DNA of 64,000 nucleotides, taken from NCBI GenBank assembly GCA_964187785.1, contig OZ076409.1:59212001-59276000 (forward strand). Direction: 5' to 3'. Shown here in pieces: positions 655 through 30,000 of this stretch; position 1 is the stretch's first letter, and the number at the start of each line of letters is the position of its first letter. Source of the stretch: Amphiscolops sp. MND2022 (lineage: Eukaryota). The notes beneath the pieces were generated by a model that did no database searches, was not told the origin of the DNA, and worked only from the letters and a program-made list of their open reading frames with translations. The position numbers and the translations under genes were made by a program.

Positions 655-1787
655 TAGTCGGCGCTTTTCCATTAAGGGAAAAATGCCCGACTATAGCAGT
701 GACTGTTTTTAGTCGGCGCGTTTTCCTTTTAAGGAGAAATGCCCGACTATAGCAGTGACCTTTTTTTCAGACTACAATCCTCACACTGATCGGTCCACTT
801 TTTAGAAACAATCCTGAAACCACCTAAGGCGCCCAGTCCGGCAAAGGGGCCAAGGCAAACTTAGTGCAAAGGGTCCCCCCTTTCATTTTTTACTTTTTCA
901 AGGTAACCTACAAAACCGGACGGGACTAAAGAGTCCCCCCTTTCGATTTTTTTTCGGCACTGTGCGACTTTTTTCTCGAATTTTTTTTTGTCTCCAAAGG
1001 TTCCCCTTTCATTTTTTCACTTTTTTAACGTAACCTACAAAACCGGCCGAGGCTAAAGGGTCCCCCCTTTTGATTTTTTTTCGGCACTGTGCGACTTTCG
1101 AAAATTTTTTAATGTCCCCAAAGGGTCCCCCCTTTGAGTTTTTTGTTATTTTGCAACAGAATGCATGTTTGGAAATCAAAAAGGGTCCCCTCTTTTACAT
1201 TTTTCGGCACTGTGCGACATTTTCCGAAAGGAATTTTTTTTTGAAAATTTCAAGTTTTTTCCAAAAAAATGTTTTGCGCTTTTTGAGCCTTAGATATAGC
1301 GCCGACTTTAGACGTTCCCGTCTTGTTTTTTCTTCAGACTACAATCCTCACAATGATCGGTCCACTTTTTAGAAACAATCTTGAAACCACCTAAGGCGCC
1401 CAGTCCGGCAAAGGGGCCTAGGCAAACTTAGTGCAAAGGGTCCCCCCTTTCATTTTTTACTACTTTCATTTTTTTCAAGATAACCTACAAAACCGGACGG
1501 GACTAAAGAGTCCCTCCTTTAGAATTTTTTTTCGGCACTGTGCGACTTTTTTTCGAAAATTTTTTTGTCCCCAAAGGGTCCCCCCTCTGAGTTATTTTGC
1601 AACAGAATGCATGTTTGGAAATCAAAAAGGGTCCCCTCTTTTACATTTTTCGGCACTGTGCGACATTTTCCGAAAGAAAAAAATTTTCGAAAATTTCAAG
1701 TTTTTTTCGAAAGTTTTTTTCCAAAAAAAATGTTTTGCGCTTTATGAGCCTTAGATATAGCGCCGACTTTAGACGTTCCCGTCTTGT
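655..1787 (+). mobile_element. HINE-like family A, doubled 5' end and tandem-duplicated body and 3' end
   Basis: 5' ends at 657 and 711; 3' ends GCGCCGACT-TT-AGACG-TTCC-CGTCT-TGTT finishing at 1327 and 1787. Confidence 0.8.
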
Positions 1788-2240
1788 TCATGAGAACACC
1801 AGCCGCAGAAAGTCAAAAAATTAAGAACCTTTTAAGAACACTACCGAGGCTCAAATTGGAATTCAATTGAAAACAACTTTAAATTACATCAACAAAATAA
1901 ACTTCAGCACCTACTATTTCAGAAGGACTATTATAGTCAATTGAATTCTTGCAAGGTTTTGTTGTAGTATGCAATTTTTCCTGCGTGCCCAACATACGGA
2001 GCCCGAACAGAGCGGCCCATATTCTGATCACTTGTATCCCAGTTATCCTCGTAGTCAACTCGTTTTTCGTTTTCGTCGTCAATTTACGCGTTGTAGTGAA
2101 AAGCTTCCGATTTCTAGAAATAAATAAGAACACCTCGAGCCTCAAATTGTCGAAAATTAAAGAACATAAGAACTTTTTGAGCCTCATTTTTCCGGGTTTT
2201 TAAGAACAATTGAGCATCGATCTGTAGGTAATGTTCTTAT

Positions 2241-2770
2241 AAACAAGCCGAGAACGGCCAAAGTCGGCGCCATATCTAAGGCTCAAAATTTGAAAGGGGG
2301 ACCCTTCGGGCTTTGTGAAACTCCAGCTAGTTGCAAAAAATTTTAAAAAATTGAAGGGGAGACCCTTTGGAGACATGAAAAAATTTCCCAAAAAAAATTT
2401 TTTAATGAGATTTTTGAACAGTGTCACAGTGCCGAAAAATGTAAAGGGGGGGACTTTTTGCGATTTTTTGACATCCATTGTGTTGCAAAATATCGAAACA
2501 AATGAATGCACCCTCTGATGCAATCCAAAAAACTTCAAAAAAAGTCGCATAGTGCCGAAAAAAAGTGGGGCTAAGGTGGGATCTTTGGACGTCTGTTTTG
2601 TTTTTTCTTTTCGTTTTGGACGCGCTTCTGAGGTTGGAGTTGTTGGGGTTTGAAGTTGTTGAGGTTTGAAGTTGTTGAACAAATGAACAAAAAAGTGGAC
2701 CTTACGCGTCTAAAAAAACTACCCGCTGTAATAGTCGGGCACATTTTCTACTAAAATGCACCGACTAAAA
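2241..2770 (-). mobile_element. HINE-like family A copy
   Basis: AAACAAGCCGAGAACGGCCAAAGTCGGCGCC at the left; CCGACTAAAA at the right. Confidence 0.75.
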
Positions 2771-2838
2771 ACTGGGTGTAGTCATAATTTAGTATTTTGA
2801 ATACCTTCAATTAGTTGATTTCACATAAAACTGCTTAG

Positions 2839-3027
2839 GGGTTTCTGTTTCTTCGGGAGGCCTCTGTGAAGGCGAGCTCTCTACAGCCTCACCAACTGAT
2901 CATCAAGTCGCACAGTGGCCACGAACAGCAGTGGAGCATCTCTAGTGGTCTAGACAGGAATGGAGACCGCACCCTCAGACAGAAATGGGTCACTGCTCTG
3001 CAACTGCACATAGACTACGCCAATAAG
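2839..3027 (+). CDS. OSBPL1A: OSBPL1A-like exon, end of PH domain (not in the ORF track)
   Basis: Acceptor cttag|GGG; translates GFLFLREASVK...RQKWVTALQLHIDYANK; donor AAG|gcaagt (GC donor). Confidence 0.75.
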
Positions 3028-6000
3028 GCAAGTGCCAATGTTTGAGAAACATATGCTTGAGATATGGATGAAATTCATTGAGAGGTAAATGCCAAATTGA
3101 GTTGTTGACGATTTTGTGACACTCATTCCTACAAAGACGTAGCTTTTGTAAAAAATGATCAAAACATACCGGCTTCTGATGAAAAGTTGAACGTTATTTC
3201 GAAAAAGTTAATGGCTGAGGCTCAAGAAAAAACTTACGCGTCAAGTTGAATAAGTTTTGAGATTTTCGCAATTTTTAACGAAAGTATCAATGTGTTTATG
3301 GACCGTTTTGATACTCTCTCAGTTCCTGAAAGATGCACCATCAGACTAGAAGAGAAAGATGATAGTGCGGTGCATGTCTCTAGGTTCATCTATCCTTTTT
3401 TTCCAGGCTTACCCAGAGGTGGAAAACGTAGCCAACCCCAGTCAGATTAGGAGCAAGTCGAGGCCTTCTTGGGACACCAACTGCAGTGAGCCCAATCTCA
3501 GACCGATAAGTGAGTTCTTACCATCGTTTATTTTTTTGCATCGAATGGCTTTGGAACGAGTGTTCTACTACAGTGTAAGCCGAATATAACGACAGTTGAA
3601 TATGCACCAGAGGTGACCAGTGAATATGATCATAAGAAAAGTCCTATGTACAATCTTTACACTTGCGATAAGCAAGTGTTATGGGAAAGTGCGGGTGCTT
3701 TTTTTCCGCGCGACAACTCTCTCGTTTCAGCCCGCAAGTCGCATAGTTCAGGCGTTCGCGGTTTAGTGGTAAGATGCTTGCTTTTCAACCCAGAGGGTTC
3801 GTGTTCGAACCCGTGCGTATGCGCTATTTTTTACAAGTAATCTGAAGCAGAAGATTCTCACTTCGGCACTGTGAGACCCTCCCCTTTTCGGCTTTGTGAG
3901 ACTTGTTTTCCAAATTTTTTAAATATCCCCAGAGGTTCCTCCCTTCATTTTTTTGTTTATTTGCAACAGAACGAATGTTAAAAAATCCCAAAGGGTCCCG
4001 TCTTTCAGATTTTTCGGCACTATGAGACTGTTAAAATTCTCATTTTTTTTTCGAAAACTTTTCGAAGTCTCCAAAGGGCCCCCTTCAATTTTTTTTAATT
4101 TCGCAAAAGAATGGATGTTAAGAAATCTCAAAGAGCCCCCTTTTACAGTTTTCGGCATTGTGAGATTTTTCAAAATGAATTATTTTTGTCTTAAAATTAG
4201 GTTTTCTCAGGCCCAGCACTCTATATCCGATTTTTTTTGTAAAGACCGGTGTTTTTTTTCTTTTTGTCTAATTTGTTTTCATCGAAGCCCCCTCAATTTT
4301 TACTAGAAACCAAACGTTTTGCGAGCATAAAGGACTGCTCAAGGTTTTCGGCACTATGCGACTAACAGGAGACCAATTTTTTTCGAAAAATTTCAAAAAA
4401 AATTTCCTCAATGTTCTGTTTTTTTTAAAGGTTTTCGGTTCAGAATGAATTTTGGCGCTGTAAAATTGATGAAATTGTAACAATATCCTTTTACCTTTGG
4501 TTCTCCGTATGATATTGCTTATTTGGTTTTCTTCAAAAAGTTCGCAACTTTCTTCGCAAGTGTTTGCGAAGCACGGCTTCGCCTCTGTGTATAAATATCA
4601 TTTCGCAAAAATGGGGTTTCATAGGAAACCTTATTGTTAGGATCCTGTGAAGCGTCCCTCTTCGATTTTTAGGATTAATATCTACAAATATTACCACCTC
4701 GATGAAACAAAATGATTTCCATTATCGATTAGTAGTTTCAATTTTTTTAAAATTTCGTCATCTGAGGGAACGTTGAGAATGAAAATGCTTTCCGTAGCAA
4801 CTTGAAATAGGTCTGATTACTACAATACACACTTTTTTTTTCGCTTAATGAATTCTGTGAATATATCCTTTATATTCGCTGTAACGTGAATTTACCCTTT
4901 ATATAGGGTACTGTTTATAGATTATTCACCCTGTAACAGTCAACTTTGACATGCGCCTCTAATTAAGCGCGGCTGTCATAAGCGATTAGATTTTATAATC
5001 GGTGAAGCACTAGCCATACTTCCGTTTTCTTTTTTTCTCGAGAGTTTGGGATTTGTTAAAACTAATTTCTGTATATGGTCTTTTCGAGCTCTGCTATTCC
5101 ACGTTTCCTTGATGATTACTGAAACTCCTGTTTTTTTGTAACTGTTGCCATTGATTTCCACGTGAATGATTATTTCATCAAAGTATATTGATCTTGGATG
5201 TATCAACATTCAGTTGCCAAATTGTTTTGGTGGATTTAACTTCGGCGAACTTTTCGCAACGTTTTTTGGTCTTGGAAAATTTCAAATTCCCTGTATCATT
5301 CCACAGTTTTTCAGGCAGTGTTCGCGACACCCTTCTTAACGCTCAAGGTTTAGTGAAACTCCTGGAATCGCAAGTGTCCGAAATGGCCTCTACCATTGGC
5401 GGTCTGGGTTCTTACTCAGCCTCACTGGACCCCACTTCTCGCAGGATGATGGAGCCCGAGTCAGCTTCGATGGGCGCGGGAGGAGCTACAAGTTCGGGCA
5501 TGGCTGGCACTTCGTTGACCGAAAGCCGACTTTGTTCTAATCACTTCAAAGTTCTCAGGCAGATGATAGACGTGAGCGAGTTGTCAAGAAATGTAACCAC
5601 CAGTTTAGAACAGTGTATGCTGGTCATGTCGCAGCAAGAAGAGTATCGTTTAGGTTGGTCACATTTCTTTATCTAAGTGTGAAGGTCCTTTTCTTGCAAC
5701 ACTTGGAAAAAGGCAAGAAAGCGCAAATGATAGAGCATTTATTAGAGCATTTGGCGATCATAAGTTAATAGAATAGATTAGTTACTCTGTTTGATCTGAT
5801 CTCAACAAAGTGAGGAAACTAAGACTTGGTTGTTTGACAGAAGCTACTTGGTCATTAAGATGTTATCAATGATGTTGATGACGTGGTTCCGCTTTGGTTT
5901 GTTGAATCTGTACTAATTTGGAGTGTTTCAGAGATCTAGATTTAGAGGGCGAGTAGAATAATGATACGAATGACGAAAGGAATGATATTAACCCTGATGA

Positions 6001-9000
6001 TAAAAGAAGATGCCCGTATCTTCATAACGTCATTTGGGTTCTCTCAAATGACTCAAGCTATTGTCTATCTTCCTTTTTGTTGTTCTCCTGTGTCGTAGTA
6101 GTTTGAAGTTGGCTCACATCCATGCATGCATGCACTCTAATTCTGACGTCACTGCAAAAAGTGAAACAAGGCTCAAAAGTCCTTCATGTTTGCTAGGAAG
6201 CTGTTTTTGTGAATAAAGTGAAAAATCACTGCTGGAAAGGTTTTGAAAGAACCATTTTCAGCTGTTTTTAGTCGGCGCTTTTCTAGTGAAAAGACCCCGA
6301 CTATTACAATGGCTAGTTTTTTTTCGTCAGACTTTTCATTCATCGCGTATGTACCACTTTTTGTGAAAGATTCACTTTTACCAAAAGTAATCAGTACTTG
6401 ATTTTGAACGCATCCAAAGGCCTCTACCTTGAAATGCAAAACCCAGAAGGGTCCCCTCTTTCAATTTTTCGGTGCTATGAGACTTTCCCCGCCCCTTTTC
6501 GGCTTTGTGAGACTTTTTTCGAAATTTTTAAAGTCTTCAAAGGGCCCCCCTTCTATTTTTTTGGTGTTTTGCACCTGAATGGATGTTGAAAAAGCCTAAA
6601 GGGCCCCTTTTACATTTTTCGGCACTATGAGACTGTTAAAAATTCTCATTTTTTGTTTTTTTGGAAAATTGTAAAAAAAATTCGAAATTTTTCAATGTGT
6701 CCGAAGGGTCGCTCCTTCATTTTTTTTTGATATTTTGCAACAAATTAGATTTTCAAAAAGCCCAAAGAGTCCCCCTTTCTACAATTTTAAAAACTGCGCT
6801 TTTTGAGCCTTGAATATGGCGCCGACTTTAGACGTTCCCGTCTTGTTGCTTCTATATGGTTGCAAATTGTCAAAATTTATAAAGGGAGGTGTGAAAATAA
6901 TCAGATAATTCTGTGTCCAATAACAGGAGTCCGATTGATTTTTTTAAAGAATAATTTTCGTCACCATAATCTAGTTCTAAGAGGGTTTGTACGTTAAGTG
7001 CATTGTCATTCGAGGCTTGTTCAGAGGTAGCTATTGACAATTTTGAAGGACAGTCACGCGGGACACCCCCTGTCTAGTTGGATGTTATATGTAGTAGTTT
7101 GGAAATCAAGTCAGATCTTCCATCTAAAACGGTATTGTGGAATGCCCAATGGCAAAGCATGATAACAAAATAAGCATCAAACTTCATCAGTTTTTCTCTT
7201 GAATTATCTCTTTCGGTTTTGAACTTTCTGAAATTATGTGTAAGGAACTGATAACTTTTATTGACTAGTTTTTCTTTAGATACGTCATCTTAGATGTTAA
7301 GGTTTCAAAGTTTCAGATTCACTGTTGTGCAAAATTAACTCGATTGGTTAACTATAATTAGACTGACTGGTTTCAATTCTCTTTTCAGTTCAAGTCCATT
7401 CATAGTAACTAAACATGAGTACCATCTATCTGATATCTGTGAATTATTCTCTGCTCTTTTCGCTTGTCGTGTTTCTGCTTGGAAGGGTTTAATTTTCAGT
7501 TTCTCCTTAATGAAGATGTGGTTATTCATTTTTATACAAATTCATTGGATGCAAATTCATTTCAGTAATTGATGATTTGTTTATCACCAAATGTATTGAA
7601 AGCTTTTTCTGATATGAATTCCAAACGTCCAGGAGAAAAGTGAAAGTGAAGGTATGTCAAAGAGTACGAGGGTGTCATGAACACTCACTTCTGCAGAGCT
7701 TTTTATAGTCTCATTTTGGTTCCATGAAAATAAATATAGAAAACCGGAGAAATTACTAACACATCATATCACGAAGTTAAGCATTGCTTGTTCAAGTAAA
7801 ATTTAGTAAAGATTCACATCCCAAAAGATACGCTGTGGAGTTGTTCATTGGATAATCTTCCCACTTTCTCAGCCTACACGAAACGCCGAAAGTTGCTACA
7901 TCGGGCATATCTTGATAGATAGATGATATTCAGCATGTCTCGTAATTTTTGACCTAGAAATTTGAAAAACCCGAATGTTCGCCGCATTGAATTTCGAGGA
8001 ACTTTTTGTTCGAATCTCTGCTTTTAGAAGTTGTGTTCTTCGAATTTTCTCACGAAACATTAATCACGCTAATGAATATGAATCGCTCAGTGTTATGTTG
8101 TAACGTAGCCTTTCAGCACCATTACACGGGTTGCACTTTTTGGAACTGCGGATTTTTTCCTTTATCACTTGTAATATGTAGTTGCATTTGCCTCGTTTTA
8201 CAAATTGTTTCTATAATCCCAGTGTGGTTGCCAGTAATGAGCACCATTTCGATTTTGTCGTTTTGGTTATTACGTCGGATGCGTTCACTAAATTTTAACC
8301 CGGTTGATCTTCAGCGCTGTATACAATTTGAGCTTGAACCTATCAGTGTTATTCGCGTAACCGTTTTTATTCGGAAAGTAGCCACACCTGGATAAGAGTC
8401 TGAAATGTTTCTTTCCAGTTCAATTTCCTGTTCGAATAGAAATGAATATTTTTGTTGGTCGAGTGGTGAAAAATATATTGGGAAGTTTTTTGCGGATACA
8501 GAAATGTTATTGAGCCCCGGAGGGACCGAGTTTGATTTTAAAAACTGAAAGGTAGATTTTTAAAAATATATAATTGGTGCTGACGTAATTGCACAGACGT
8601 TCCTGGGTTGTCACTTGGTTAATTGCTTCTTGAACTTTTCATCATTTCCGCAAAATGGAAAATGCATTTATGAAGCACCTAGCAGTGAAGACAAAGTGTC
8701 TGTTCTTGAGGAAAGCTTCGAAGTGTATTTGGTTTCAGGTTACTAAGTTTGTTTTCAGTATATAAATATAACGCGACTGTTTTATAGATTTTTTCAATCC
8801 TATCTAAGTGACCAAAAAAGTTAACCATAAGCATAAAAATATGAATCTCCTCCTCAAATTTTGACATTTTACTTCGTATTACAAAGCTTTTACTTCGTGT
8901 TTTTGGTCCCCCCTTTCATTTTTCTTCGGCACTGCGAGACTTTTTTTCTCGAAAAAAAATTTTCCCCAAAGGGTCCCCCTGCATTTTTTTGACGTTTTGC

Positions 9001-12000
9001 AACAAAATGGATGTTGAAAAACTCAAAGGGTCCCCCTTTCAGTTTTTCTGCATTGTGAGACTTTAGCGCGCCACTCGGTCCTTTTTTTCGAAAAAGTTTC
9101 GATTTTCGAGTACTGTAAAAGAGAATACTTGACACTTGGAAGTCTTTTTGCTATTTTCGAGCCTTGGATATGACGCCGACTTGAGCCGGTCCCGGCTTGT
9201 TTTCAATCCACATGAACTGACCAAAATAGTTCTCAAAAGTTCTACGAAATTTTATGGTCACAAATTGAATCATTTGGCGTAGCGAACTGAACCAAAAAGG
9301 TTTTCCCTCTTTTTCCGCGTAACATACAATACCGAGAGAGACTAAAGGGTCCCCCTTTCAGTTTTTTCGGCATTGTGCGACTTTTCGGAATTTTTTTTCC
9401 ACCAAAGGGTCCCCCTTCAATTTTTTGATGTTTTGCAACCTTGGATGTTACAAAATGCGAAAGGCCCTTCTTTTAGAGGGCCAGGGGCCCGCGCTAGCGG
9501 GCACCTGGCGCCCCAGTTCTCGGTCGTTTGGGTTTTTCGCGAGTTTGATACACTTTTTGTGAGTTTGATTCTTTGAGTTTTGGACACTTTTATGTCCTTT
9601 TGCTATATTTGAGCCTTAGATATGTCGCCGACTTATGCCGTTCCCGGCTTGTTTTTAGTCGGCGCTTCATGAAGTGAAACGCGACTATTATAGTGACTCT
9701 TTTTTTTCTATCCACACGAAGAACTGACCAAAATAGTTCTTAAAAGTTCTACAAAATATTATTGCACCAAATTGCACTATTTGGCCTAGCGAACTGAACC
9801 AAAAAGTTTTTCCGCGTAACATTCCGCGTTCCCCCCTTTCATTTTTTTTTCGGCACTGCGAGACTTTTTTCGAAAAAAAAATTTCCCCAAAGGGTCCCCC
9901 CTGCATTTTTTCATGTTTTGCGACAGAATGGATGTTGAAAAACCTCAAAGGGTCCCCCCTTCAAGTTTTTCGGCATTGTGAGACTTTAGCGCGCCACTCG
10001 GTCCTTTTTTCGAAAAAGTTTCGATTTTCGAGTACTGTAAAAGAGAATACTTGACACTTGGAAGTCTTTTTGCTATTTTTGAGCCTTGGATGTGGCGCCG
10101 ACTTGGGTCGGTCCCGGCTTGTTCTAATTTTCAGTCGGCGCTTTATGAAATAAAATGCGACAATGATAGTGGCCTTTCGTCGTGTTTTTTTTTCAATCCG
10201 GTCGTAGAGACCATTTCGTGCCGAATGTCAATGTTTGTGCCGGATACCGAAATAATTCAATGGATCCTCCCGTTTTATATGTCATCCCTTTCTTTTTCAA
10301 CATGTGTATGTGGATTTCAAGCTATTTGTAACTTCAATTGCGACACCGTGTGCTTTTTTTTCGAAAATTTGAATTTTCACAAAAAAGCCCCTCTGTTTTG
10401 GCATTTTTAGTTATGAAAACTTTCAAGCCCAAAGAATCCCTTTTCGTGTTTCGTTTTGGCACTGTGCGACATCATTCACATGGTGTGCATTCAGTATTTT
10501 TGAAAGTCAATGAAGCTTTTTCAAGCCCAAAGACACAGCTTTAGATTTTTTCTACTGTAAGATTGAGAATTGTCCAAAAACAGTTCCTTTGGAGTACATT
10601 GCGCATTTTGAGCCTTGAGCAGTACGTTCCCAATTTACAGAGCGAATTACAAAGCCTGTTGAGACCAAAAGGTCCTTTTGTTTTTTTTTTGCATTGAGTC
10701 TTTTTTTCAAACTTTTGTGTGCGAGGAGCCCCTCCTCGGTTTTTCAAAATCTTTTGTTTGAGCTCAAAGTGCCATCTTTGGATATTTTTTGACACTGTGT
10801 GATTTCGAATTTTTCCGAAAAACAGCCACTTGACATATTTAAAAGACTTCCGGTTGCAAAGAAGCGATAGTCTAGTGGTAGAAAAAGCGTTTTACGAGCT
10901 TAAAACTCCTTTTTTGGCACTATGGGACTTTTTCCGAAAAGTTTGTGGTCTGAAAATTGTGTTTTTCGATGTTTCCAGTTAGAGAAAAAGCGGTCTTGGA
11001 GCCTTATAGGCAGGGTTCGCATGTTTAAAACATGCCGTGTTTAAAACGCGTTTTAAACATGTTTTAAACAGAGTTTTAAACATGACAAAAACCTTCATTT
11101 TGTTCAATTGTTTATGTATTTCAGTTATAGATATTTTCAAGTTCCTAAAATCGCAAGTAATCTTGGGTAATTTGGCGGAAGACATCAAGGAAATTGCCGA
11201 TGCGCTTCTGGTTTTTATTCGAAGTTCGGCAGGCTTGGAACCAGTTTTCAGCACCCTGGGCTTCGTCCACAATTAAACACGGAATCGACTCTCAATTGAG
11301 AAAGCCAACGAACTTGCTTTCTGTCTTTGCATTCTGCATTGAACTCAGTTTTTAGGTCGTTTTGTGTTAGACATATTTATGTGATAGATCTAGAGTTTTG
11401 AACATGTTTTAAACAAAAATTTTTAATGTTTTAAACGTTTTAAACACGATTTTTTCAAAATCTTGTTTTTTTCCGAACCCTGCTTATAGGTATCCCTTCG
11501 GGTATTTTTTGGCACTGTAAAATTTATAAAAATTTCTACAATTGTGTCCCTTAGCATATTCAAAAAACTTTGCTCTTTCTGAACCTTGATCGGACGCCGA
11601 CTTGGGTCGTTCCCGACTTATTAAAATCAGCTCGCACCTACCTAGCCTTTTGTTTTTCGAGAAAAGACTGCACGCCCTCCATTGTATTTGTTCAGTATTG
11701 GATCTGGCTTGCCTGGAACTGTTACAATCTTGATGTACAAATGTTTTTGTTTCCAAATTTGAACCGTTCAATCTGAAATAACATCCTTTTGAGCTCTTAT
11801 TAAAGTTCTTTTGAAATGGGGGGAGAGGGGTACTGGCTTTATACAAGTTGCTTTCAAAAAGATATGAAATGGTGCCAGCTTGCCTGCATAAATTCTTGAA
11901 GTTGAAAGCATGTTGAAAACGATGAAACATGCGGCAAAACATGCTCCTTAATGCATATCAACAGTTGAACGTAAGTGCACTGCTGATGGTCAGTTCAATT

Positions 12001-15000
12001 AGTAGCAATGTAATGATAAGAATTGATCCTTTCTCCATATAAACTTTGGAGGGTTAATGCTTTTGACACATGAACATCAGCTTCTTTCTATTCTACGATT
12101 GGTGATATACAGAAGTATGTATGTATGTATACAGTAGTGCTACTTAACAATTACGACTTCGGAGTTTCCTAACTTGTATAATTTGCTCTTACATAATTAA
12201 CGAAATCAATCTGACATCTTTCGATTTATGACATTTCATTTTTTATTGATTATTGTTCCGCTTTTCCATTAAAAAATGATCAAACTGCAAACTTACTTGT
12301 GATATACCATTTCGATTTTTGAGTGGTGGGTTTTATTTGAATGGTTCTTTTTCCTGTTTCCAGTCTGTTACTGTTTTTGTCGCCGCTCAAATACTCTCAC
12401 GTTTTTGTAAAATCGCGAATTGACTACCGAATTGTACTATCCCTAATCTGGAAAATGAACGTTATAATTGCGACTACAACCCCTTCCCTCGATTCACCCC
12501 TCAAGCTCTCAACATTCCGCACCAGAAACTTTTTTGTCGGATTGGAATTCCAGACTTCCGGCTCAAGTGCAAAATGGTATTTACAAAGTTTGCATTTGTC
12601 TTTAGTTTTCAGCGGGGGTTCTACATCGATCTGCCATAAACTACTGAAACATTGTCTGTATACAGACAAAACTCCTGCCACGTTTGGAAGCAGGCGAATG
12701 TGGATTCGAATCCCGCTCAGAGGGCCAATATTTTTGAACGTTTTGAAACCAAGCCGTACTGATAGTTTTCAAATAACGTATCTAACGAAAACTACATTCA
12801 AATTTTTGACGGTATATGAGGTTGTATGACGTTATAGAAGTTGGTGACTCAAGTCAAGAAAGTCATTGAAGGTCGTTCTGAAGGTCGCTTTCTTTCGGTA
12901 AGTACTATTTCTTCACTTTGCCAAAGTTGGATATGCATGAACTAATTTTCAAATCTGTCGGATATTGTTTCAATTAGATTAATTCGTCACTTTTCTCGTC
13001 GAATCATTGTGGCTGGGAGTGGTCAATTGAGGATCAAAGAGCGCGGTTAAAGTCAATCTAAGATTGCCGACAAATTTATGAAGTGGGGTTCTTTGGGCTC
13101 GAAAAACGCTTCTCTAACTGAAAACGTCTAAAACCCCATTTGTTTGGAAGAAAATTGCACAGTGACGAAAAAACTCCAAACATGAAAAGTTGTCATGTGC
13201 GGGATTCGAACCCATGACTTCCTGCTTGCAAAGCACCCATCCTTGTCACTAGGGTAAGAGGTGGGATCTCGGCTCCAAACTTTGAAAAGTGGCCTTTTCA
13301 GTGTGAGGTCTGTGGTCTGACTAAAACATTTGCCACTGTGAGGCAGCACTTTTTGTGAGAAGCGCTGACTAAAAACCCCGTTCTGCAAAGCATTTTTAGT
13401 TGGCGCTTTCATTAATATTTCTGCTTTAGCAGGAATGTTATTGAAATCTCAAAATGTCTACTTTTTTTCAGTACAATTCTTGGCACGATACTGAATAATT
13501 CAGATATTTTGTTCGGCAGTGACTATAAGCGTGAGAAATAAGTTTCTCAAGCTGCCGACGACAATTCAATTCTCGTGCGATGGAACGAGCGAGTGGTAAT
13601 TATGCATTCGTGAGCTGACGTCATTGAGATGAAGCGAGAGAATGTTCGTAATTGTGCTTTCGTTGCGCCGAGTTATTGAGATGAAGCGAATGAGTGTTAA
13701 TTATACTTTCGCGGAGAGCTTCGCCGTATTCAAATATATATTTGCTTTAGTCCGAGATTTACTACTATTACTACTAAAAGACTGAATTTATTCTAGAAAG
13801 AAATACTTGATGATATTTACATGCACAGATTTTTTAAACAACAGATTTAACGGTATAAACTGGTTGTGATTAATTGTGCGCTAAATAATGATTAAACAGG
13901 AGTGTATTGGTATTGCAGATATGATTCTTCCATTAATAAAAGAAAAGCAGAAATAGTAGTGTGCCCCTATTTTTTAATAAAAGAGCCCGCTTATTACAGT
14001 CACTCGTTTTTTCTTTAAGACCATCTCGAATGCGACAAAAACTTTGTTCAATTTGTTCAACTAAACGATTACCTGGAAACCGCATCAAAGTTAAGGGCAA
14101 GTTATGGGCTTTTTAAACGTAACAGAAAAAACCGGACGAGACTAAAGGGTTCCCTTTCAATTTTTCTGGCACTGTGTGACTTTTTTTGTCTCCAAAGGGT
14201 CCCATCTTCGATTTTATTGAAGTCCCCCTTTGGGAGCAATCCCTTCAGACGGGTTGATTAATCGAAATGTTTTTTTTGTAGTGTGAGTTGTATTGTGTTG
14301 TATATCTAATCATCCTCGACCATCTGTAAATCCATAAGAATAATATCCGGAATAAAGGGCTATATCCGAACTTTTGACGTTATATCTGAACTATATTGCG
14401 TTTTATTAAGGAAGAGGCGGAGGTTCGAAAACTGGAGTGTTTCACGAAAACGTCCTTCGCATATTTTAAAAACTGCGCTTTTTGAGCCTTAGATATAGCG
14501 CCAACTTGAGACGTTCCCGTCTTGTTTTTTAGTCGGCGCTTTTCTTGAAAAAGCCGACTATAGTCATGGCTTTTCGTCAGTGTTTTTTCGATACACCAGA
14601 AGTGACCAAAATAGTTCTACAAGTTCTACAAAATTTTATGGTGTTCAATTGAACCATTTGGCCTAGCGGACAAAATCAAAAAAGATTTTCCTTTTTTTCC
14701 GCGTAACATACAATACCGGGCGAGACTAAAGGGTTTGAGTTTTTTCAACATTGTGGGACATTTTTTTCCGAAAAAAATTATCCCCAAAGGGTCCCCCTTC
14801 AATTTGTTCGGAGTTTTGCGACAGAATGGATGTTGAAAAATCCCAAAGGGTCTCCCCTTTCAGTTTTTTTCGGCATTGTGAGACTTTCAAAAAAATCATA
14901 AAAGGGTACCCAACTCACCAATACTTTGACATTTTGAAGTCCTGTTTCTATTTTTGAGCCTTAGATATGGCGCCGACTTGGGCCGGTCCCGGTTTGTTTT

Positions 15001-18000
15001 TATTAGTGAGTGATGAATTATTTGCTAGTTAATACAGTGCCTTCTGCTTCCAATTTCTTTCCAGAATTTTACGTCGGAAAGGTGTCTATTCTTTAAACCT
15101 CATATAATATCATAAAGTTTTCAAATGCTCCAAAATTTGTTAGCCTTGAGCTATTTCTGAGAAGGGCTAATATTAATAACACATAAGTACCAATAAAACT
15201 CATTTCAACTTAGTGGATCTTGAATTTTTGTGCTTCGAATAATTGTAGACGTTTTCAGAGCAACTAAATGAAGTGCATCGGAAGAACGAGATCCTGGAGA
15301 ACGCACTTCGCATTCTGGCTCATCAGCACCACAATCTAGAACTGACACTGAATGAGTCATACAAGTCGGCCACCGCCGCTGACTCATCCTTCATCAACCA
15401 GCTACAAAAGACGGTCGAAAAACACATGGACAGGTATGCGCTCCAATCACCTGATACAAGTCCATGATCATCATAGATTCTACGTGAAAAGAGCGAGTCT
15501 ATTTTATCCTAAGTTTGATTAAAGAACTCTTGGGAGCTCACGCCACTCGTGCGGTTGTCATAAACGAATTTGGTTGTGTGTCTCATCTTTATAGGTATTC
15601 AAACGATACCAATCCCAAAGAAGATATTCGAAAAATTGACGTGGCTTTCAATTCTTAAAATTAGGTTTTCTCAGTGGCCCAGCACGCCATATTTACGGCG
15701 TTTTTTCTATGCGACTTTTTTTCCAATTTGTTTTCATTGAAGCCCCCTCGATTTTTACTAGAAACGAAACGTTTTGCGAGCATAGAGGACTCTTAAGGGT
15801 GTTCAGCACTATGCGACTTACCGGAGACCTGCAAAAGTTTTTCGCCTTCTGAGACTTTTTCTGTGGAGCAAATTGGGTTTTTTATTATTATTATTACAGG
15901 TTTCTTTGAAATGCTTATAAAAGATATAAATGCACATCTGAAGTAGCATAATCAAAGTAGACCCAAGACAACACCTTTAGGTGTCAATTTTATGGGGCCC
16001 TGGCCTTAGTCACTAAGATTCAATGTTGTGAAAATTGAGTTGTAATTGAAGTTTTAACTTATTTAACTTTCACCTATTTTAGAGGGAAAACAGTTTAGAG
16101 TAGCAAAACTCATACTTACCGTGGGGACGCTTTGCGCTGCTCTTTTCTTCGTCTGGTAGCTAGGAATATTAGTCTTCTTTCCTGTCGTTTATGAGGGATG
16201 TTTCGAACATGGAAGGGTCCAATGGTTCACACTGGGAAACCAACCATGCTCAGCATTTTTTCTAACTCCCCTCCTCGTAACTCTCAGCTTGATCCCTTCG
16301 ACTAGAGGTGGTCAAGTCTTACGAAGAGCTACGGGGAGTTAGAAATACCACTCATCAATTGAGCATTTCAAGTAAGTTATCATCTGGTATAGGTAGTAAA
16401 AAACGTTTGAGTTCGTGAATTGTATTATCCAGTTTAGATTGTGAAAATTGCATTAAATCATTAGGGTATAACCCTTGGTCTATCAAAACAATGAGGAGTC
16501 TTGTACCACGATAGCGCAGAGAAAACTTCTCCCAGTTGTTACAAACGAAAGGTGTTACAAAACTACTGTTATTTTCACTTCTACAAGATCGGTTTCTCTG
16601 TTGTCTTTGGAATAAATTGTTCATGTGCTCGGTAGGCATCTCTTGTCGAATACTTCGGAAGGCAAACTTCATAATTTCATAAACATAAAGTTGCGGTACA
16701 CTTAGTATCTGAGCATTTATCATTTCAGTTTCAACACTTCCTGTTCGCTTGAAAAATTTGAGACGCAACAATTTTCTCTGCCTTGTGGCAACTTTGTTCA
16801 AATGCGCTTTGTACGTACCGCCATAGACAAGGATTCCATATTGTATGACAGGTTTAATGTAGAGATTGTAATAGAGTAGTGTGACTTCTTTGGAAACGAA
16901 ATGCCTTAACTTTGATACAATACCAATTGCTTTTAAGAGCTTTTTTGACACCCGGTTGATATGGTCCGTAAACTTCAGTTCTTTATCGATAAGGACACCG
17001 AGATATTTGACACTACGGCATTCTTCGATCTTCATACTGCTAAGCTCAATATTTCCAGGGGTTTTGATTCTAAATGAAACACATTTCGTTTTGTCTACTT
17101 CAGACACAATTTGTTTGCGGTGAGCCATTCATTCACGCGAATCAGTTCTCTTGATAAAAGTTTTTCGAGGGTGTCTTTGTTTTTCGATGTAATTACAAGA
17201 TTTGTATCGTCTGCAAAAAATGTTGGCGTTGAGTATATACAAAAATGCTCCAGATCGTTCATGTAAATAAGGAAGAGAATTGGACCTAGAATTGAACCTT
17301 GCGGAACGCCCCTAGATATCGATTTAACAGAAGACTGTACATTATTGACCTCAACTTGTTGTTTTCTATCACTAAGATAAGATTCAAACCACTTATACAA
17401 TGAACCGCGAAATCCAATTCGATGCATTTTTTCAAGAGAGTTTCATGATCAATTGTATCGAAGGCTTTGGTTAGATCCAAGAAAACACATTTGCTGTACA
17501 GCGCTGTTTTTGTCGCGATTTTTTTCCGTAATACTAACAATAGCATCAACTGTCGACCTTTTACTCCGATAACCATTTTGAGAGTCGGAAAGCAGTTTGA
17601 ACGTTTCCGAAAAAGCATATATTCGATTATGAACTACTCGCTCAAAAACTTTCGAGATTACAGATACAACTGAAATGGGTCTGTAGTTGTTCAAATTTTG
17701 ATGATCGTCTGATTTGAATAGAGGTTTGACTGTAGCAGTTTTCAAACAATTCGGGAAAATTCCTTGTCCGAGAGACTCATTGACTAATTGAACTAAATAG
17801 GGGCCAATTACCGAGGAGCTTATCTTAAGCACTTCAGAAGGAATACCATAGGTACCAACTGACTTGTTTTCCTTCAAACTATTCAGTATAGACAAAACTT
17901 CATTCAAGGTAGTTCGTTTACAGTAACATGAGAACGGTGTCATCTCGATGTGATTAAGGTCATTTGTTTGGTCTTGTTGCAACTCTGACAGTAGTTTCGC

Positions 18001-24000: not shown

Positions 24001-27000
24001 GAAAATTTCAAAATTTTTCTCATTCAAAATGTTACTCGATGAAAGTATGAAAAAAATCCAACGAATTTGTTGGTATTATAATGAATATTGGCATACATGG
24101 TGAGTATTCGAATTGCAATTTTTCTGTATTGTGTTAAGGTCGTGTGAGTTCATGGAGAGTGTATTCCTGCTGGCCAAGGCGTCCAAACTGAAGGAGTCGC
24201 TCTCTCAAATGGTGTTGGTGGCCACTTTCGCCACTGTGTGCATTAACTCTCTCTCGGACAGACTCAACAAACCCTTCAACCCCATCCTGGGAGAGACATT
24301 CCAATTCACAGACGAGGAGGTTTGAACATAGATTTCATCCTGTCCATTTCATTCAATAGTGATAGATATCGTTAGGAATAGTGGATTGTATGGTAAACAT
24401 GCGCCTGGGATGATTTCATTTCACACCTTGATTAAATGGTTTGCAGAGAAACTAATCTAGAGTGGACCGCTTAAAATGTGAAGTAGTTCCAAATAATTTT
24501 CGCATTTTCTATCGCAGCTAATTATACAAGGTTTTTGGTGTATAATCTGGGCATTTGTAACTTATTAACAAACCTGATATAATTTGTATGTAGCTTTTAC
24601 CTGATTGATATGAGTTATCGCGTGACATGAGTTGTTTCTATACCGATATTGGTCATAACATATTGGTGCCCAAGATTCATCCAATTTATTTTTAAAAAGC
24701 CATATTTTAATTCTCGTATAAAGGATTGTGCAAAATAGTTTTTTTTCTTTAATAGGTTTTGCCATACCCTATTTTTATACTCAGAAGATGAAGCTTCTTT
24801 TATAGAATTCAACTACAAAAAAGTAACATCATAAATGGCATCTTTTATTTCGAAAAGATGTTTTGGATGTTCAAATTAGTTTGAACAAAAAATATGTAAA
24901 CCATTCCTCTATTAAGGAAAATTCAAGAAAAAAATTGTGAAAAATTACCAAAGCCACAAGCGTATATATTCATGGCGATATCTGAACTTTTTGAAGAAAA
25001 GCAGCTCAGAAAGTGCCGAACATTTCCTTCAGTTTTTGAACGTTTCGTGCAATTTGTAGGTGGGTGTCAGGGTGATTGCCGAACAAGTGAGTCATCATCC
25101 GCCTATCACAGCTTTCAACTTCCAGTCATCTTTCGCCCACATCAATGGCAATGCCGCTCCCAAAATCAGTTTCGGAGGAATGGGACAGTCTATACAAGTA
25201 GGTTGTCCTGTTTTTTTTGTCGGCGCGCAACTTACGGTGATTAGTTTTTAGTCGGCGCCTTTTCCTTTAAGGAAACAAGCCCGACTAATACAGTGGCTAG
25301 TTTTTTTCAGCTGACAATCTCACTCTGAATGGTCCACTTTTCTTACAATTCTTACAATCTTAAAAAAATTACAATTTTTACCTTGCGAAGTAGTATTTTT
25401 TACATCATCTAAGAAACTCAACGGGGCCAAAGGGTACTCCCTTAGAGCATTTTCGCCTCTGTGAGACTTTTTTTCGAAAAAAAAATCACCAAAGGGTTCC
25501 CCCTTCAATTTTTTGATATTTTCCGACAGAATGGATGTTGAAAAATCCCAAACAGTCCCCCTTTCAGTTTTTTCGGCATTGTGAGACTTTCAAAAAAATT
25601 CATAAAAGGGTAGCCAACTCACCAATACTTTTGACATTTTGAAGTTCTTTTTCTATATTTGAGCCTTAGATATGGCGCCGACTTGGGCCGGTCCCGGCTT
25701 GTTTTTCTCTCAGACCACAGAGCCCACACTCAGAGGTCCACTTTTCAGGCTTCAAGTCTGGGCCAGTACGGAAAACTCAACACATGAAAACTCAACACAA
25801 TAAAACTCAACACAGAAAACTCAACACAAGAAAACTCAACACAGAAAACTCAACACATTTCAACACATTTAAATAATTTTAGTTAACACCTCAATTGAGT
25901 TTATTTTCCGAAATCTAACTAATTGTTAGATCCGGATTATTTCCGTTTACAATTGGTCACAGTTGCGACTCATTTCAAAGACATATAAGGACGTATAATT
26001 CCCTTTACACCTAGTCATGATTGCGACTTTTTCCAATATTAAACTATTTTTCACGTTGAAACATTGTTTACATTGGCCCAAACCATGAAACAAAACGATC
26101 GAAAAAGTTTAAACGCAAACACAAATTTTTTAGAAAAATTGTGTCAAATGCATAAATTTTGAGCAGTACGAACAAGGAATATAGATATATAATATATATC
26201 ACGATTAATAAATGCTCAAAATGTTTTGAGTTTTCTTGTGTTGAGTTTTCTTGTGTTGAGTTTTCTTGTGTTGAGTTTTCTGGTAATCAAGTCTGGGATC
26301 TAAGGCGCACCCAAAGAGATCAAAAGGGTACCACCCACTTTGAGTAATTCATAGTTTTGCCGTATCCTGAAAACTATATTGGACCGTAGGGTCCACTTTA
26401 GGGTTTTCTGGGCACTGAGTGACCCTTCAATCTTATCTTTTCAGTTAGTACAATACGTTTCAAGAGCATAAAGGCCCCCTTCAAGTTTTCGGCACTGTGC
26501 GACTTTCGAAAGGAAAACGTTTCTCACCATTTTTTCGATGATTCTAGGGTTCAATTGGCGCTTAGCTGTTTTTAGTCGGCGCCTTTTCCCTGAAGGAAAA
26601 AATACCCACTATTACAGTGGGTAGTTTTTTAGTCGGCGCTTTTTAGTGAAAAGTGCCCGACTATTACAGTGGCTAGTTTTTTTTTCTTTTTTTTCGTCAG
26701 ACTACAGTCTCACTCTGATTGGTCCACTTTTCTTAGAACAGAAACTACTAAAACTACTAAGGCCGTAAGGCCAAGTCCGGACAGCGGAAATTAAGTGCAA
26801 AGGGTCCCCCCTTTCATTTTTTACTTTTTAACGTAACCTACAAAACCGGACGAGACTAAAGGCCCCCTTTCGATTTTTTTCGGCATTGTGCGACTTTCGA
26901 ATTTTTTTTTATGTCTCAAAAGAGTCCCTCTTTCAAGTTTTTTGATATTTTGCAACAGAATATATGTTAATTAAGCCGAAAGGGTCCCACCTTTTACATT

Positions 27001-30000
27001 TTTCGGCACTATGCGACATTTTCCGAAAGAAAAAAATTTCGAGAACTTCAAAAAAAGTTTTTTTCCAAAAAAAATGTTTTGCGCTTTTTGAGCCTTAGAT
27101 ATAGCGCCGACTTTAGACGTTCTCGTCTTGTTTCATTTTTCAGTTCACTCTGAATGGTCCTTTTTTTGCTCATTTGTTCAACTTTTTAGTCGAGATATTT
27201 TAGTTCATATATAACGTTTTAAAGTTCGGATGTAACGTTTTCAAAGTTTAATTTCGGATGTAACGGTTTCAAAGTTCGGATATAACGTTTTCAAAGTTCG
27301 GATATAACGTTTCCAAAGTTCGAATATACGGTTTTCAAAGTTTGGATGTAACGTTTTCAAATTTCTTATATAACATTTTCAAAGTTCGGATATAACGTTT
27401 TCAAAGCTCGTATATACCGTTGTCATTTTTTCCCAATTTTTTTTTCGATTTGTTCCCCAAAATTTCACATACTTTGTTGAGCCTTAGATATGGCGCCGAC
27501 ATTGGCCGTTGCCGGCTTGCTAGTACTCAATCTAAAACTGTCTACAGCGCCGTATATAGCTAGTCGTTTTCGCCATGGGGATGAAAAAAAGAATTGTTCT
27601 TAGGAAGGAATCTAGAGTGTTCTAGCTACAAGCGGCGAAATGATCATGATTGCCGACACCAAAACATTCCTGGCTCAATGCAGCATAAAGAAACCAAACG
27701 CGGTCATGTTCAACGACAGATTTTTTAGAAAACCTCATAAATTACAAACTGTCAAACAAATTCAAAGGGGAACTCCTGAGGTTCGAAAAACGCGACGGTG
27801 ACGCTCAAAGGTTAGATTTGAAAAAGTTCGAAAAAAGTAGCACAGTGTCGAAAACCCCAAATAGTCTCGTATATGTAAAACGTATTAACCCAGAATGGAG
27901 GTGGAATTTTCTGGATTCATCCGAAAATCTGGTGCTTAAATTTTGAACCGCAATATCTCCAAAACTATTCGAGTCCGACAAACGATTTATACAGCATTCG
28001 AAAGAAGAGCATCGGGGCTTTCAAATCAATTTTAACACTGCTGGTCTGGGGGCCCGCTTCGCCGCACTGGCTCCGGACTTTGCGCCAAAACTTTGCACGC
28101 GTGGTGTCTCTGGCTGCAGTTCAGCTTGTTTCAAAACATGCTAGGGCCTTTGACCTAATCTTGTCCCCAGTATTATAAAGTGGCCACACAGGAAAATCGG
28201 AAATTTTGCGCTAATTTTTTTTGATTTTTTTGTTCTCGTTTTTCTGATTTTGGAGACATCAAGTCAAGAATCCGTGAAAATGCGTGCAATTCTATGTTGT
28301 TTTGCCTGAAAATCTTATTCAAGAGTTTTCTTCACCATACGGTGGGCTGATGCCTTAGAAGTTCGCAGATTTTAAGTTGTGCAAATACGTACCGCGATGC
28401 TAAATAAGGTTGAACTGTGAATACAAAACAAAAATACCCGTGGTGTTAGATTGATCTTTCGGTGTTATCAATTTGATGTTAGATTGGTATTTCGGTATTA
28501 TCGATTTGAATTTATGAAAGTGGACGCTTCACGGTAATGTGAAGAAAAAAACTAGCCAATTTAAAACTCGTGCATGTTGGAAAAACAATTTTTCAGGTTC
28601 GTGTGATCGGCAGCACCGTGGTTGACCTGAAGTTGCCCAGTGGCAAAGTGGAGACTATATCGTGGAGTAACCCCCGTTACGTCGTGCATAATATCATTGC
28701 CGGTCAGCTGTGGCTGGAACAAGTGGGCGTTCTCAGGGTGGTCAATCACTCGTCGAAGTTCTCTGCCGAGGTAGAGTTCAAACAGGCTGGCTTTTTCAGG
28801 GGATCGCTGCACGAAATAGAGGGATATGTAAAGGTTGGTAAAGGTGTATGTAATGTGCCGGGAGAGCAATTCAAACTTGTTAATTTGTTGAAAATTTGTT
28901 TCTGAATTTTTCTTTCATTTCATAGCAAAAAAATTCCCAAAAACCCAACAAATAGGTATGAAAAAGTGTTTTTCTGGAAATCGACTCTCCTCTTTGAAAC
29001 TTCATGCTGTACTTACAAGGCTATCTCGCCATCGCAAATTTTAATACGGTATATTTTAGTATTTTTCAATATGAAACACCCGTTGTTGCGTCATTCATCC
29101 TCGAAATTTGGCAGAAAAGTTGTATCTAGTTGAATTGCATTATTGTTTTTGAGTATGAATGTTTTTTCTTAAGGCGTCTCTGAACTATCTTGAAATGGTT
29201 TGGAGAAAATAGTGTCCCGTGGAAGCCTGAAGTCAAAGCTTGTACCTCAGAAAAGTGTACGACGAGTTGAGGTGTTATCAAACATTTGTCAAAAGTTGTC
29301 AAACAATTGTTATCAAGACCCTTTTTGACTTCATTCGTTCTTTGATCTCAGTTCCATCTCTCGCTTCATTGCAGGATCCCTCGGGAATCAACAGAATGTA
29401 CCTCTTTGGCAAATGGAATGAGCAAGTGCATGCAATCCCGGTGGAGAGCCTAACTAAACACATGGAGGAACGGAGACCTGGCGAGGCTCTCAGTGAAGCT
29501 CTCCGCAACGACCCAGAATGTGTTCTAGTGTGGAAACGCAATGAAAAACTACCAAATTCGCAGCTCTATTACAACTTCTCAGCCATCGCGATGGCTATGA
29601 ACGATAAAAACTTGAAGCATGGATCCGTCGAAGACTTGCCCAAGAGCGATTCCAGATTGAGACCAGATATCCGCTTTTTAGAAGAGGGTCAGCTGAACAA
29701 AGCCACGGAAGAGAAGTATAGACTTGAGCAGAAGCAAAGGGCTGCACGAGCATCCAGAGACAAAAGTGAGGCACAGTGGAAGCCTCTTTGGTTCGACGAA
29801 ATTGAATTTGAAGATGGAAATGGATTGACCAATCAGAACAAAGCTACAATAAATTCATCTATGACGTCATCATTGTTCAACGCTAATATTCCCGAAGTTC
29901 CAGTTCAGAAGTATGTACAGGCGTTCAAATATAAATGTTGGAATATGATTTGCAATTTTCAGCCCAAAGGGGAAAACTTGAAAGGATTACATCGAATCGT

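What the first reader, a model, noticed from the sequence alone, without database searches (positions are those of the whole stretch)
1295..11620. Compensatory base changes preserve the 3' hairpin of family A
Seen: after GCGCCGACT the stem reads AGACG-TTCC-CGTCT (1311, 1771, 6830), AGCCG-GTCC-CGGCT (9184), GCCG-TTCC-CGGC (9637), GTCG-TTCC-CGAC (11606) and GCCG-TTGC-CGGC (27505). Both arms change together while the 4-nt loop is kept. Inference: the structure rather than the sequence is selected, as expected for a single-stranded DNA termination or recognition signal for a HUH Rep nuclease.
Basis: partly seen in the sequence, partly recalled or inferred. Interest (0 to 1): 0.7.

Follow-up and report, generated by a model that had tools for sequence, protein, structure and literature searches.

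The report
Helentron 3' hairpin, one covarying pair
The repeats are short, very abundant rolling-circle jumping genes of the known Helentron (DINE-1-like) kind; their small end hairpin stays paired, but only one of its five base pairs swaps on both sides, and the hairpin likely acts as the copy-stop signal already proposed for this group.

Summary
The seven stems are in the window (one is off by one base). Family A is a non-autonomous Helentron (HLE2, DINE-1/HINE-like): 9-10 bp subterminal inverted repeats, a 5' hairpin, a 3' hairpin, insertion into T-runs, and about 30,000 intact 3' ends. At least five RepHel lineages carry the same 3' end.

The covariation is narrower than claimed. Only the middle pair changes on both sides: A-T 13,573 and C-G 14,774 copies. 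The outer pair varies without compensation, three pairs are fixed in sequence, and the loop varies at two positions.

The covariation survives tree-based pairing (p about 0.008), but a non-pairing neighbour base also follows (p about 0.03). The hairpin therefore likely moves as a block, and only one or two compensatory events are needed. No amplified lineage has a mismatched core; the most uniform group measured carries a G·T wobble. The same hairpin, compensation and terminator idea were published for DINE-1 in 2008. No earlier scan note on this family came up.

The parts
656..692 (+). 5' module of the outer element: subTIR AGTCGGCGC plus partial inverted repeat ending CCGACT, predicted long hairpin
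711..1327 (+). Complete inner element nested in the T-run behind the outer 5' module (5' module 711-748)
   Evidence: paralogous empty site in L039
1299..1327 (+). 3' end: subTIR 1299-1307, stem AGACG 1310-1314, loop TTCC, CGTCT 1319-1323, terminal TGTT (pair 3 A-T)
1328..1788 (+). Body and 3' end of the outer element; hairpin 1771-1784 (A-T)
2242..2766 (-). Complete element on the minus strand, hairpin TG GCCG TTCT CGGC (C-G)
6270..6847 (+). Complete element; hairpin 6830-6843 (A-T)
9173..9201 (+). 3' end, hairpin AGCCG GTCC CGGCT 9184-9197 (C-G)
9625..9653 (+). 3' end, core stem 9637-9648 (C-G); outer pair is a T·T mismatch, typical of an amplified lineage
9657..10123 (+).
11594..11622 (+). 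Diverged 3' end, core 11606-11617 with T-A; count matches random double decay
14531..14998 (+). Complete element inserted right behind another 3' end (14526)
26574..27521 (+). Second nested pair: 5' modules at 26574 and 26631, 3' ends at 27132 and 27521 (hairpin core 27505-27516, C-G, loop TTGC)

Best explanation
Family A is a non-autonomous Helentron (HLE2, DINE-1/HINE-like) whose 3' hairpin likely serves as the stop signal when a RepHel protein copies it by rolling-circle transposition, and is likely selected for both its pairing and most of its letters. Shown: the anatomy; insertion into T-runs with no duplicated non-T bases; RepHel-coding elements with the same ends; one two-state base pair (A-T or C-G); one young G·T wobble lineage; no amplified lineage with a broken 4-bp core. 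Inferred: RepHel binds the AGTCGG/CCGACT repeats, nicks at the 5' end and displaces one strand, and the hairpin folds on that strand and tells it to cut at the terminal TTGTT. Also inferred: the middle pair switched once or twice, and the 16-nt hairpin block was then exchanged between subfamilies. The exchange would occur by recombination at the shared subTIR, helped by nested insertions that stack 3' ends in tandem.
For: Anatomy matches PMC2374699 and PMC4067079. Autonomous partner: two copies 98.4% identical over 11.4 kb, bounded by the same subTIRs, with a 2304-aa frame matching PF14214. Of 12 related RepHel loci, 10 have the hairpin end 0.5-1.1 kb after the frame with no 5' module between. 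Pair 3 is Watson-Crick in 93.6% of 30,314 ends, r2 about 0.95. Tree-independent pairs: the partner base follows in 7.7 of 9 and never goes the other way. The G·T lineage (29 of the first 100 rows, about 290 copies; 1.5% median divergence among 6 copies) has no A·C counterpart, although decay to G·T and A·C is symmetric (about 99 vs 108, by-eye tallies). Hairpin-less ends are 63 of 19,661 and scattered over backgrounds. Block exchange: unpaired neighbour a1 follows in 6.0 of 9 pairs while upstream bases do not. The two C-G RepHel lineages are not one clade (p-AU 9e-75), yet carry the identical 16-mer.
Against: No biochemistry exists here for this family, and I found none for any HLE2. Few copies ever become masters, so the absence of mismatched or hairpin-less lineages is weak: I estimate about 2 and under 0.1 would be expected without selection (rough, assuming about 50 masters per 30,000 copies). 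An amplified lineage has T·T at the outer pair (8 of 81). The G·T stem is predicted at only -2.1 kcal/mol against -3.0 to -4.6 for the amplified types. Two autonomous copies share sequence past their first intact hairpin, so it can be bypassed. Three of the five RepHel lineages are single copies, and only the 2304-aa lineage had its 5' end checked.
Confidence: 0.68

Rival explanations
1. Pure sequence recognition plus founder effect. RepHel reads the letters G·CG·T·C·CG·CTTGTT, positions a3 and b3 are free, and two old founders happened to carry complementary letters that then spread by linkage.
For: Three of four core pairs never vary at lineage level. Mutual information for non-pairing columns is nearly as high: a1-a3 0.73 vs a3-b3 0.86. 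One founding event plus block exchange explains all lineages seen.
Against: A chance double transversion landing on one pair and on the complementary base is about 1 in 20 (rough estimate). The only other amplified change at that pair is a wobble. Chimeras crossing inside the hairpin seem to exist (A·G in A-T backgrounds: 20 of the first 100 rows, against 1 of 100 for the mirror class), but none was seen amplified.
Confidence: 0.17
2. One reading: structure, not sequence, is selected, with repeated independent compensations along the stem.
For: Two changes of pair 3 on the RepHel tree, and monophyly of C-G is rejected. Sign test p about 0.008. The 5' hairpin keeps pairing across types of 29-38 nt: 9 of 10 types have z at or below -2.6.
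Against: Only 1 of 5 pairs has two-sided change. T-A is at the decay expectation. The repeated switches carry neighbouring unpaired letters with them.
Confidence: 0.1
3. Compensation comes from hairpin-templated repair (one arm copied from the other), with no selection on pairing.
For: It would explain a double transversion without a lasting mismatched intermediate (general knowledge of quasi-palindrome correction, recalled).
Against: No excess of corrected T-A stems among inserted copies: 11 observed, about 13 expected by independent decay. Repair during transposition itself is not tested by this.
Confidence: 0.05

Closest known systems
Drosophila DINE-1 (Yang and Barbash 2008, PMC2374699; passages read)
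   Same: Subterminal inverted repeats, partial inverted repeat beside the 5' subTIR, a 3' stem-loop a few bases after the 3' subTIR, internal repeats, T-rich targets. The paper already says compensatory mutations maintain the stem and proposes a rolling-circle terminator.
   Different: Unrelated sequence; subTIR 9-10 bp perfect instead of 13; stem 4-5 bp instead of 7-11; here the variation is within one genome, not between species.
Helentrons and HINEs (Thomas et al. 2014, PMC4067079; first three of eight parts and passages read)
   Same: Autonomous RepHel element sharing subTIRs and 3' palindrome with short partners; T-run insertion without target duplication; diverged autonomous families sharing the same subTIR.
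   Different: subTIR shorter than the 12-15 bp of mite HINEs and not palindromic; Rep motif 2 reads G-M-A-H, neither the Helentron S nor the Helitron L; N-terminus looks like a JAMM/MPN domain by eye.
HLE2 group (HELIANO, PMC11417382; passages read)
   Same: Short terminal inverted repeats, stem-loop after the right repeat, T/T insertion.
   Different: The repeat is at or below HELIANO's length setting (over 11 nt); placement in an HLE2 subgroup was not tested.
Helraiser, bat HLE1 Helitron (PMC4778049; passages read)
   Same: 3' hairpin as terminator that can be bypassed; stem letters exchangeable, loop sensitive.
   Different: HLE1 ends (5' TC, 3' CTAG), 19-bp palindrome, A/T target; no subTIRs.

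Membership tests
Non-autonomous HLE2 (HINE / DINE-1-like) | Subterminal inverted repeats at both ends | tested here: met
   AGTCGGCGC / GCGCCGACT in 130 paired ends; 9-10 bp perfect, shorter than the 12-15 bp published
Non-autonomous HLE2 (HINE / DINE-1-like) | Short stem-loop just after the 3' subTIR | tested here: met
   4-5 bp stem, 4-nt loop, 91.5% of cells paired
Non-autonomous HLE2 (HINE / DINE-1-like) | Partial inverted repeat beside the 5' subTIR (DINE-1 type) | tested here: met
   151 of 197 candidate 5' ends carry it; folds
Non-autonomous HLE2 (HINE / DINE-1-like) | Insertion into T-runs without target duplication | tested here: met
   20 of 120 tested gave a hit; 12 judged by eye true empty sites (about 9 events), all T-runs, no non-T duplication; 8 were self-matches. 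102 of 151 have exactly 5 T before the subTIR
Non-autonomous HLE2 (HINE / DINE-1-like) | Autonomous RepHel partner with the same ends | tested here: met
   PF14214 match in a 2304-aa frame bounded by the same 5' and 3' ends in two copies; five lineages with the 3' end
Helentron in the strict sense | AP endonuclease fused to the C-terminus of RepHel | tested here: inconclusive
   Motifs recalled as AP-endonuclease-like (ETW, GDFN, LD) read by eye in the last 230 aa of the translation; no profile scan obtained
Helentron in the strict sense | Rep motif 2 diagnostic residues (G-S-P-H; F/Y-x-R upstream) | tested here: inconclusive
   Reads G-M-A-H-I-H: neither S nor L
Helentron in the strict sense | RepHel groups with HLE2 in a transposase tree | not tested
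   No reference transposases were fetched
Canonical Helitron (HLE1) | 5' TC and 3' CTRR ends, insertion between A and T | tested here: not met
   Ends are a T-run plus AGTCGG and TTGTT; targets are T-runs
MITE (cut-and-paste derivative) | Terminal inverted repeats with target-site duplication | tested here: not met
   The 3' repeat lies 20 bases inside the end; no non-T duplication; a TT duplication cannot be told apart inside T-runs
HUH terminator hairpin (function) | Rep cleavage or termination depends on the folded hairpin | not testable with these tools
   Needs an assay; precedent only in Helraiser

The most novel reading that the evidence does not exclude
The 3' terminator is a 16-nt cassette exchanged among at least five RepHel lineages only 67-75% alike, through nested insertion and read-through. 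About 30,000 copies then form a natural mutation map of an HLE2 end that has not been dissected experimentally. The partner protein may also carry a JAMM/MPN deubiquitinase-like domain, a third deubiquitinase class beside the OTU and VTD domains known from Helentrons.
Probability: 0.35. Interest if true: 0.45.

Novelty: new member of a known kind. Interest (0 to 1): 0.24.

Why it matters
Mostly ordinary: it confirms in another animal what was proposed for DINE-1 in 2008. Its use is practical. Near-identical autonomous copies with long open frames and a large allelic series of ends make this a workable system for testing how HLE2 elements stop copying. It also shows how subfamily linkage and decay can pass for repeated compensation when only seven copies are read.

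Tried and rejected
T-A as a third compensated subfamily: rejected (11 copies, decay expectation about 13).

Covariation at pairs 1, 2, 4 and 5: none two-sided.

A second family with the same 9-mer and a different hairpin (49364, 55459): it belongs to a different repeat with tRNA-like boxes read by eye, likely a SINE; dropped.

Other RepHel families as partners: 8 of the 10 elements read do not show these ends bounding their frame, and 8 of 20 loci gave no DNA match to the partner.

A hairpin-less lineage: of 24 of the 63 ends read, 7 keep hairpin remnants and 17 are clean deletions in several backgrounds. The close pairs are mostly segmental duplicates; one pair at 3.7% has different flanks.

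The raw count of 11 A-T/C-G changes on the 208-row tree was not used as an event count: 121 of 201 branches are unresolved and that set was enriched for rare types.

No R-scape was available. The earlier-findings look-up returned three unrelated notes.

Full report
Observation. The seven stems are present, one off by a base. They are 3' ends of a dispersed repeat; 130 paired ends were mostly 0.3-0.7 kb long. The window lies in a 1.07 Gb genome; a 26-mer just upstream of the hairpin has 19,661 exact matches and its reversed control has none.

Anatomy. Each element begins with a T-run and AGTCGGCGC. A partial inverted repeat ending CCGACT follows 20-30 bases on, so the 5' end can fold into a 29-38 nt hairpin. 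The body holds short internal repeats. It ends GCGCCGACTT, two variable bases, a 4-bp core stem with a 4-nt loop, and TTGTT, after which sequence becomes flank. Empty sites: 120 tested, 20 hits, 12 judged true by eye (four are one tandem set), 8 self-matches. All are T-runs with no non-T duplication. Most are nested insertions into the T-run behind another copy's 5' module, which explains the stacked 5' modules and stacked bodies at 656-1788 and 26574-27521. This is the DINE-1/HINE layout (PMC2374699, passages; PMC4067079, three of eight parts and passages; PMC11417382, passages).

Partner. PF14214 gave 152 matches in the genome. Of ten elements read, two with a 2304-aa frame are bounded by the family's ends and are 98.4% identical over 11.4 kb. 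Of 20 further loci, 12 matched this element; 10 of them have the hairpin end 0.5-1.1 kb after the frame, one end is degraded and one locus has none. They fall into five lineages 67-75% alike: three with A-T and two with C-G at the middle pair. Helicase, AP-endonuclease and N-terminal JAMM-like motifs are read by eye with recalled labels; no profile scan of the whole frame was obtained.

Covariation, sample. Eighty 10-kb stretches at regular steps plus the window gave 86 candidates by an anchor that uses no hairpin letters. A looser anchor over all loci gave 244 candidates, 209 with the tail in register, 81 of them from the unselected set. The tail filter includes the last stem base, so its invariance is partly built in, and the diverged copy at 11594 fell outside the anchor. 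Pair 3 has the top mutual information (0.86), but non-pairing columns come close (0.73, 0.65), the mark of subfamily structure. One of five pairs has two-sided change.

Covariation, genome. With the other core letters fixed: A-T 13,573; C-G 14,774; A with non-T 328; C with non-G 647; G or T first 992, of which T-A 11. Splits within the last three classes are my by-eye tallies of the first 100 listed rows (contigs 1-3), scaled. T·G about 466 and C·A about 408 give about 13 expected T-A against 11 seen. So inserted copies decay symmetrically and T-A is not a lineage. One departure is amplified: a G·T wobble type of about 290 copies at 1.5% median divergence among 6 copies, the most uniform of the 12 groups measured. 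It arose where the outer pair is A-T, so four Watson-Crick pairs remain. An amplified type with T·T at the outer pair also exists (8 of 81).

Phylogenetic correction. On a tree from the 174 bases upstream (157 rows, targeted rare types removed), nine independent pairs differ at a3. The partner b3 follows in 7.7 and never opposes (p about 0.008). The unpaired-side neighbour a1 follows in 6.0 (p about 0.03), while bases further upstream do not. On the RepHel tree the state changes twice and one C-G clade is rejected, but both C-G lineages carry the same 16 letters, differing from the commonest A-T type at three places. Block exchange just after the shared subTIR is the simpler reading.

Necessity. 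Hairpin-less ends are at most 63 of 19,661, recurrent and scattered. Because few copies become masters, this and the absence of mismatch lineages are weak evidence. Two autonomous copies share sequence beyond their first hairpin, while four others of the lineage stop there. That fits occasional bypass as in Helraiser (PMC4778049, passages).

Verdict. A new family of a known kind. The hairpin, its compensation and the terminator idea are in print for DINE-1. Searches showed no experimental dissection of an HLE2 end, and (listing only) showed no description of this family; subscription papers, repeat databases and supplements were not seen. Selection on pairing is likely but rests on few events, and most letters are fixed as well.

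Noticed in passing
L065:7261 onward (G000:C1, about 34.708 Mb), first 200 aa of the 2304-aa frame: Motif read by eye as JAMM/MPN-like (H-x-H ... S-x-x-D, recalled). PMC9741609 (passages) lists OTU and VTD deubiquitinases in Helitrons; one search found no paper on a JAMM domain there. Not confirmed by a profile scan.
   Followed up: partly
window 656-1788, 26574-27521; L067-L068; L129: Russian-doll nesting: elements insert into the T-run right behind the family's own 5' module (4 of 54 5' ends in the random 800 kb, 2 of 15 in the window).
   Followed up: partly
5' modules, e.g. window 656-692, 2733-2766, 9657-9686: The 5' hairpin keeps pairing across types of 29-38 nt with different upper stems (9 of 10 types z at or below -2.6); more turnover than the 3' hairpin, though mostly T-run against A-run.
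   Followed up: partly
window 49050-49420 and 55402-55490; L100, L120, L152: Another dispersed repeat with tRNA-like A and B boxes read by eye, likely a SINE, that contains the same 9-mer by coincidence.
   Followed up: partly
G000:C1 71.6-76.5 Mb; L061-L064, L071-L074: A cluster of about 20 PF14214 matches, most with open frames of 2200-2550 aa, on contig 1; other RepHel families without family A ends.
   Followed up: no
L031-L038 (G000:C1:7560-10967): Eight 3' ends in tandem at about 483-base spacing near the start of contig 1: satellite-like array of the element.
   Followed up: no
window 16355-18623 (minus strand): Broken frames that look like a LINE reverse transcriptase by eye.
   Followed up: no
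window 35352-36076: Tandem array of four 172-base units; a related unit is the flank at the empty site L183/L155.
   Followed up: no
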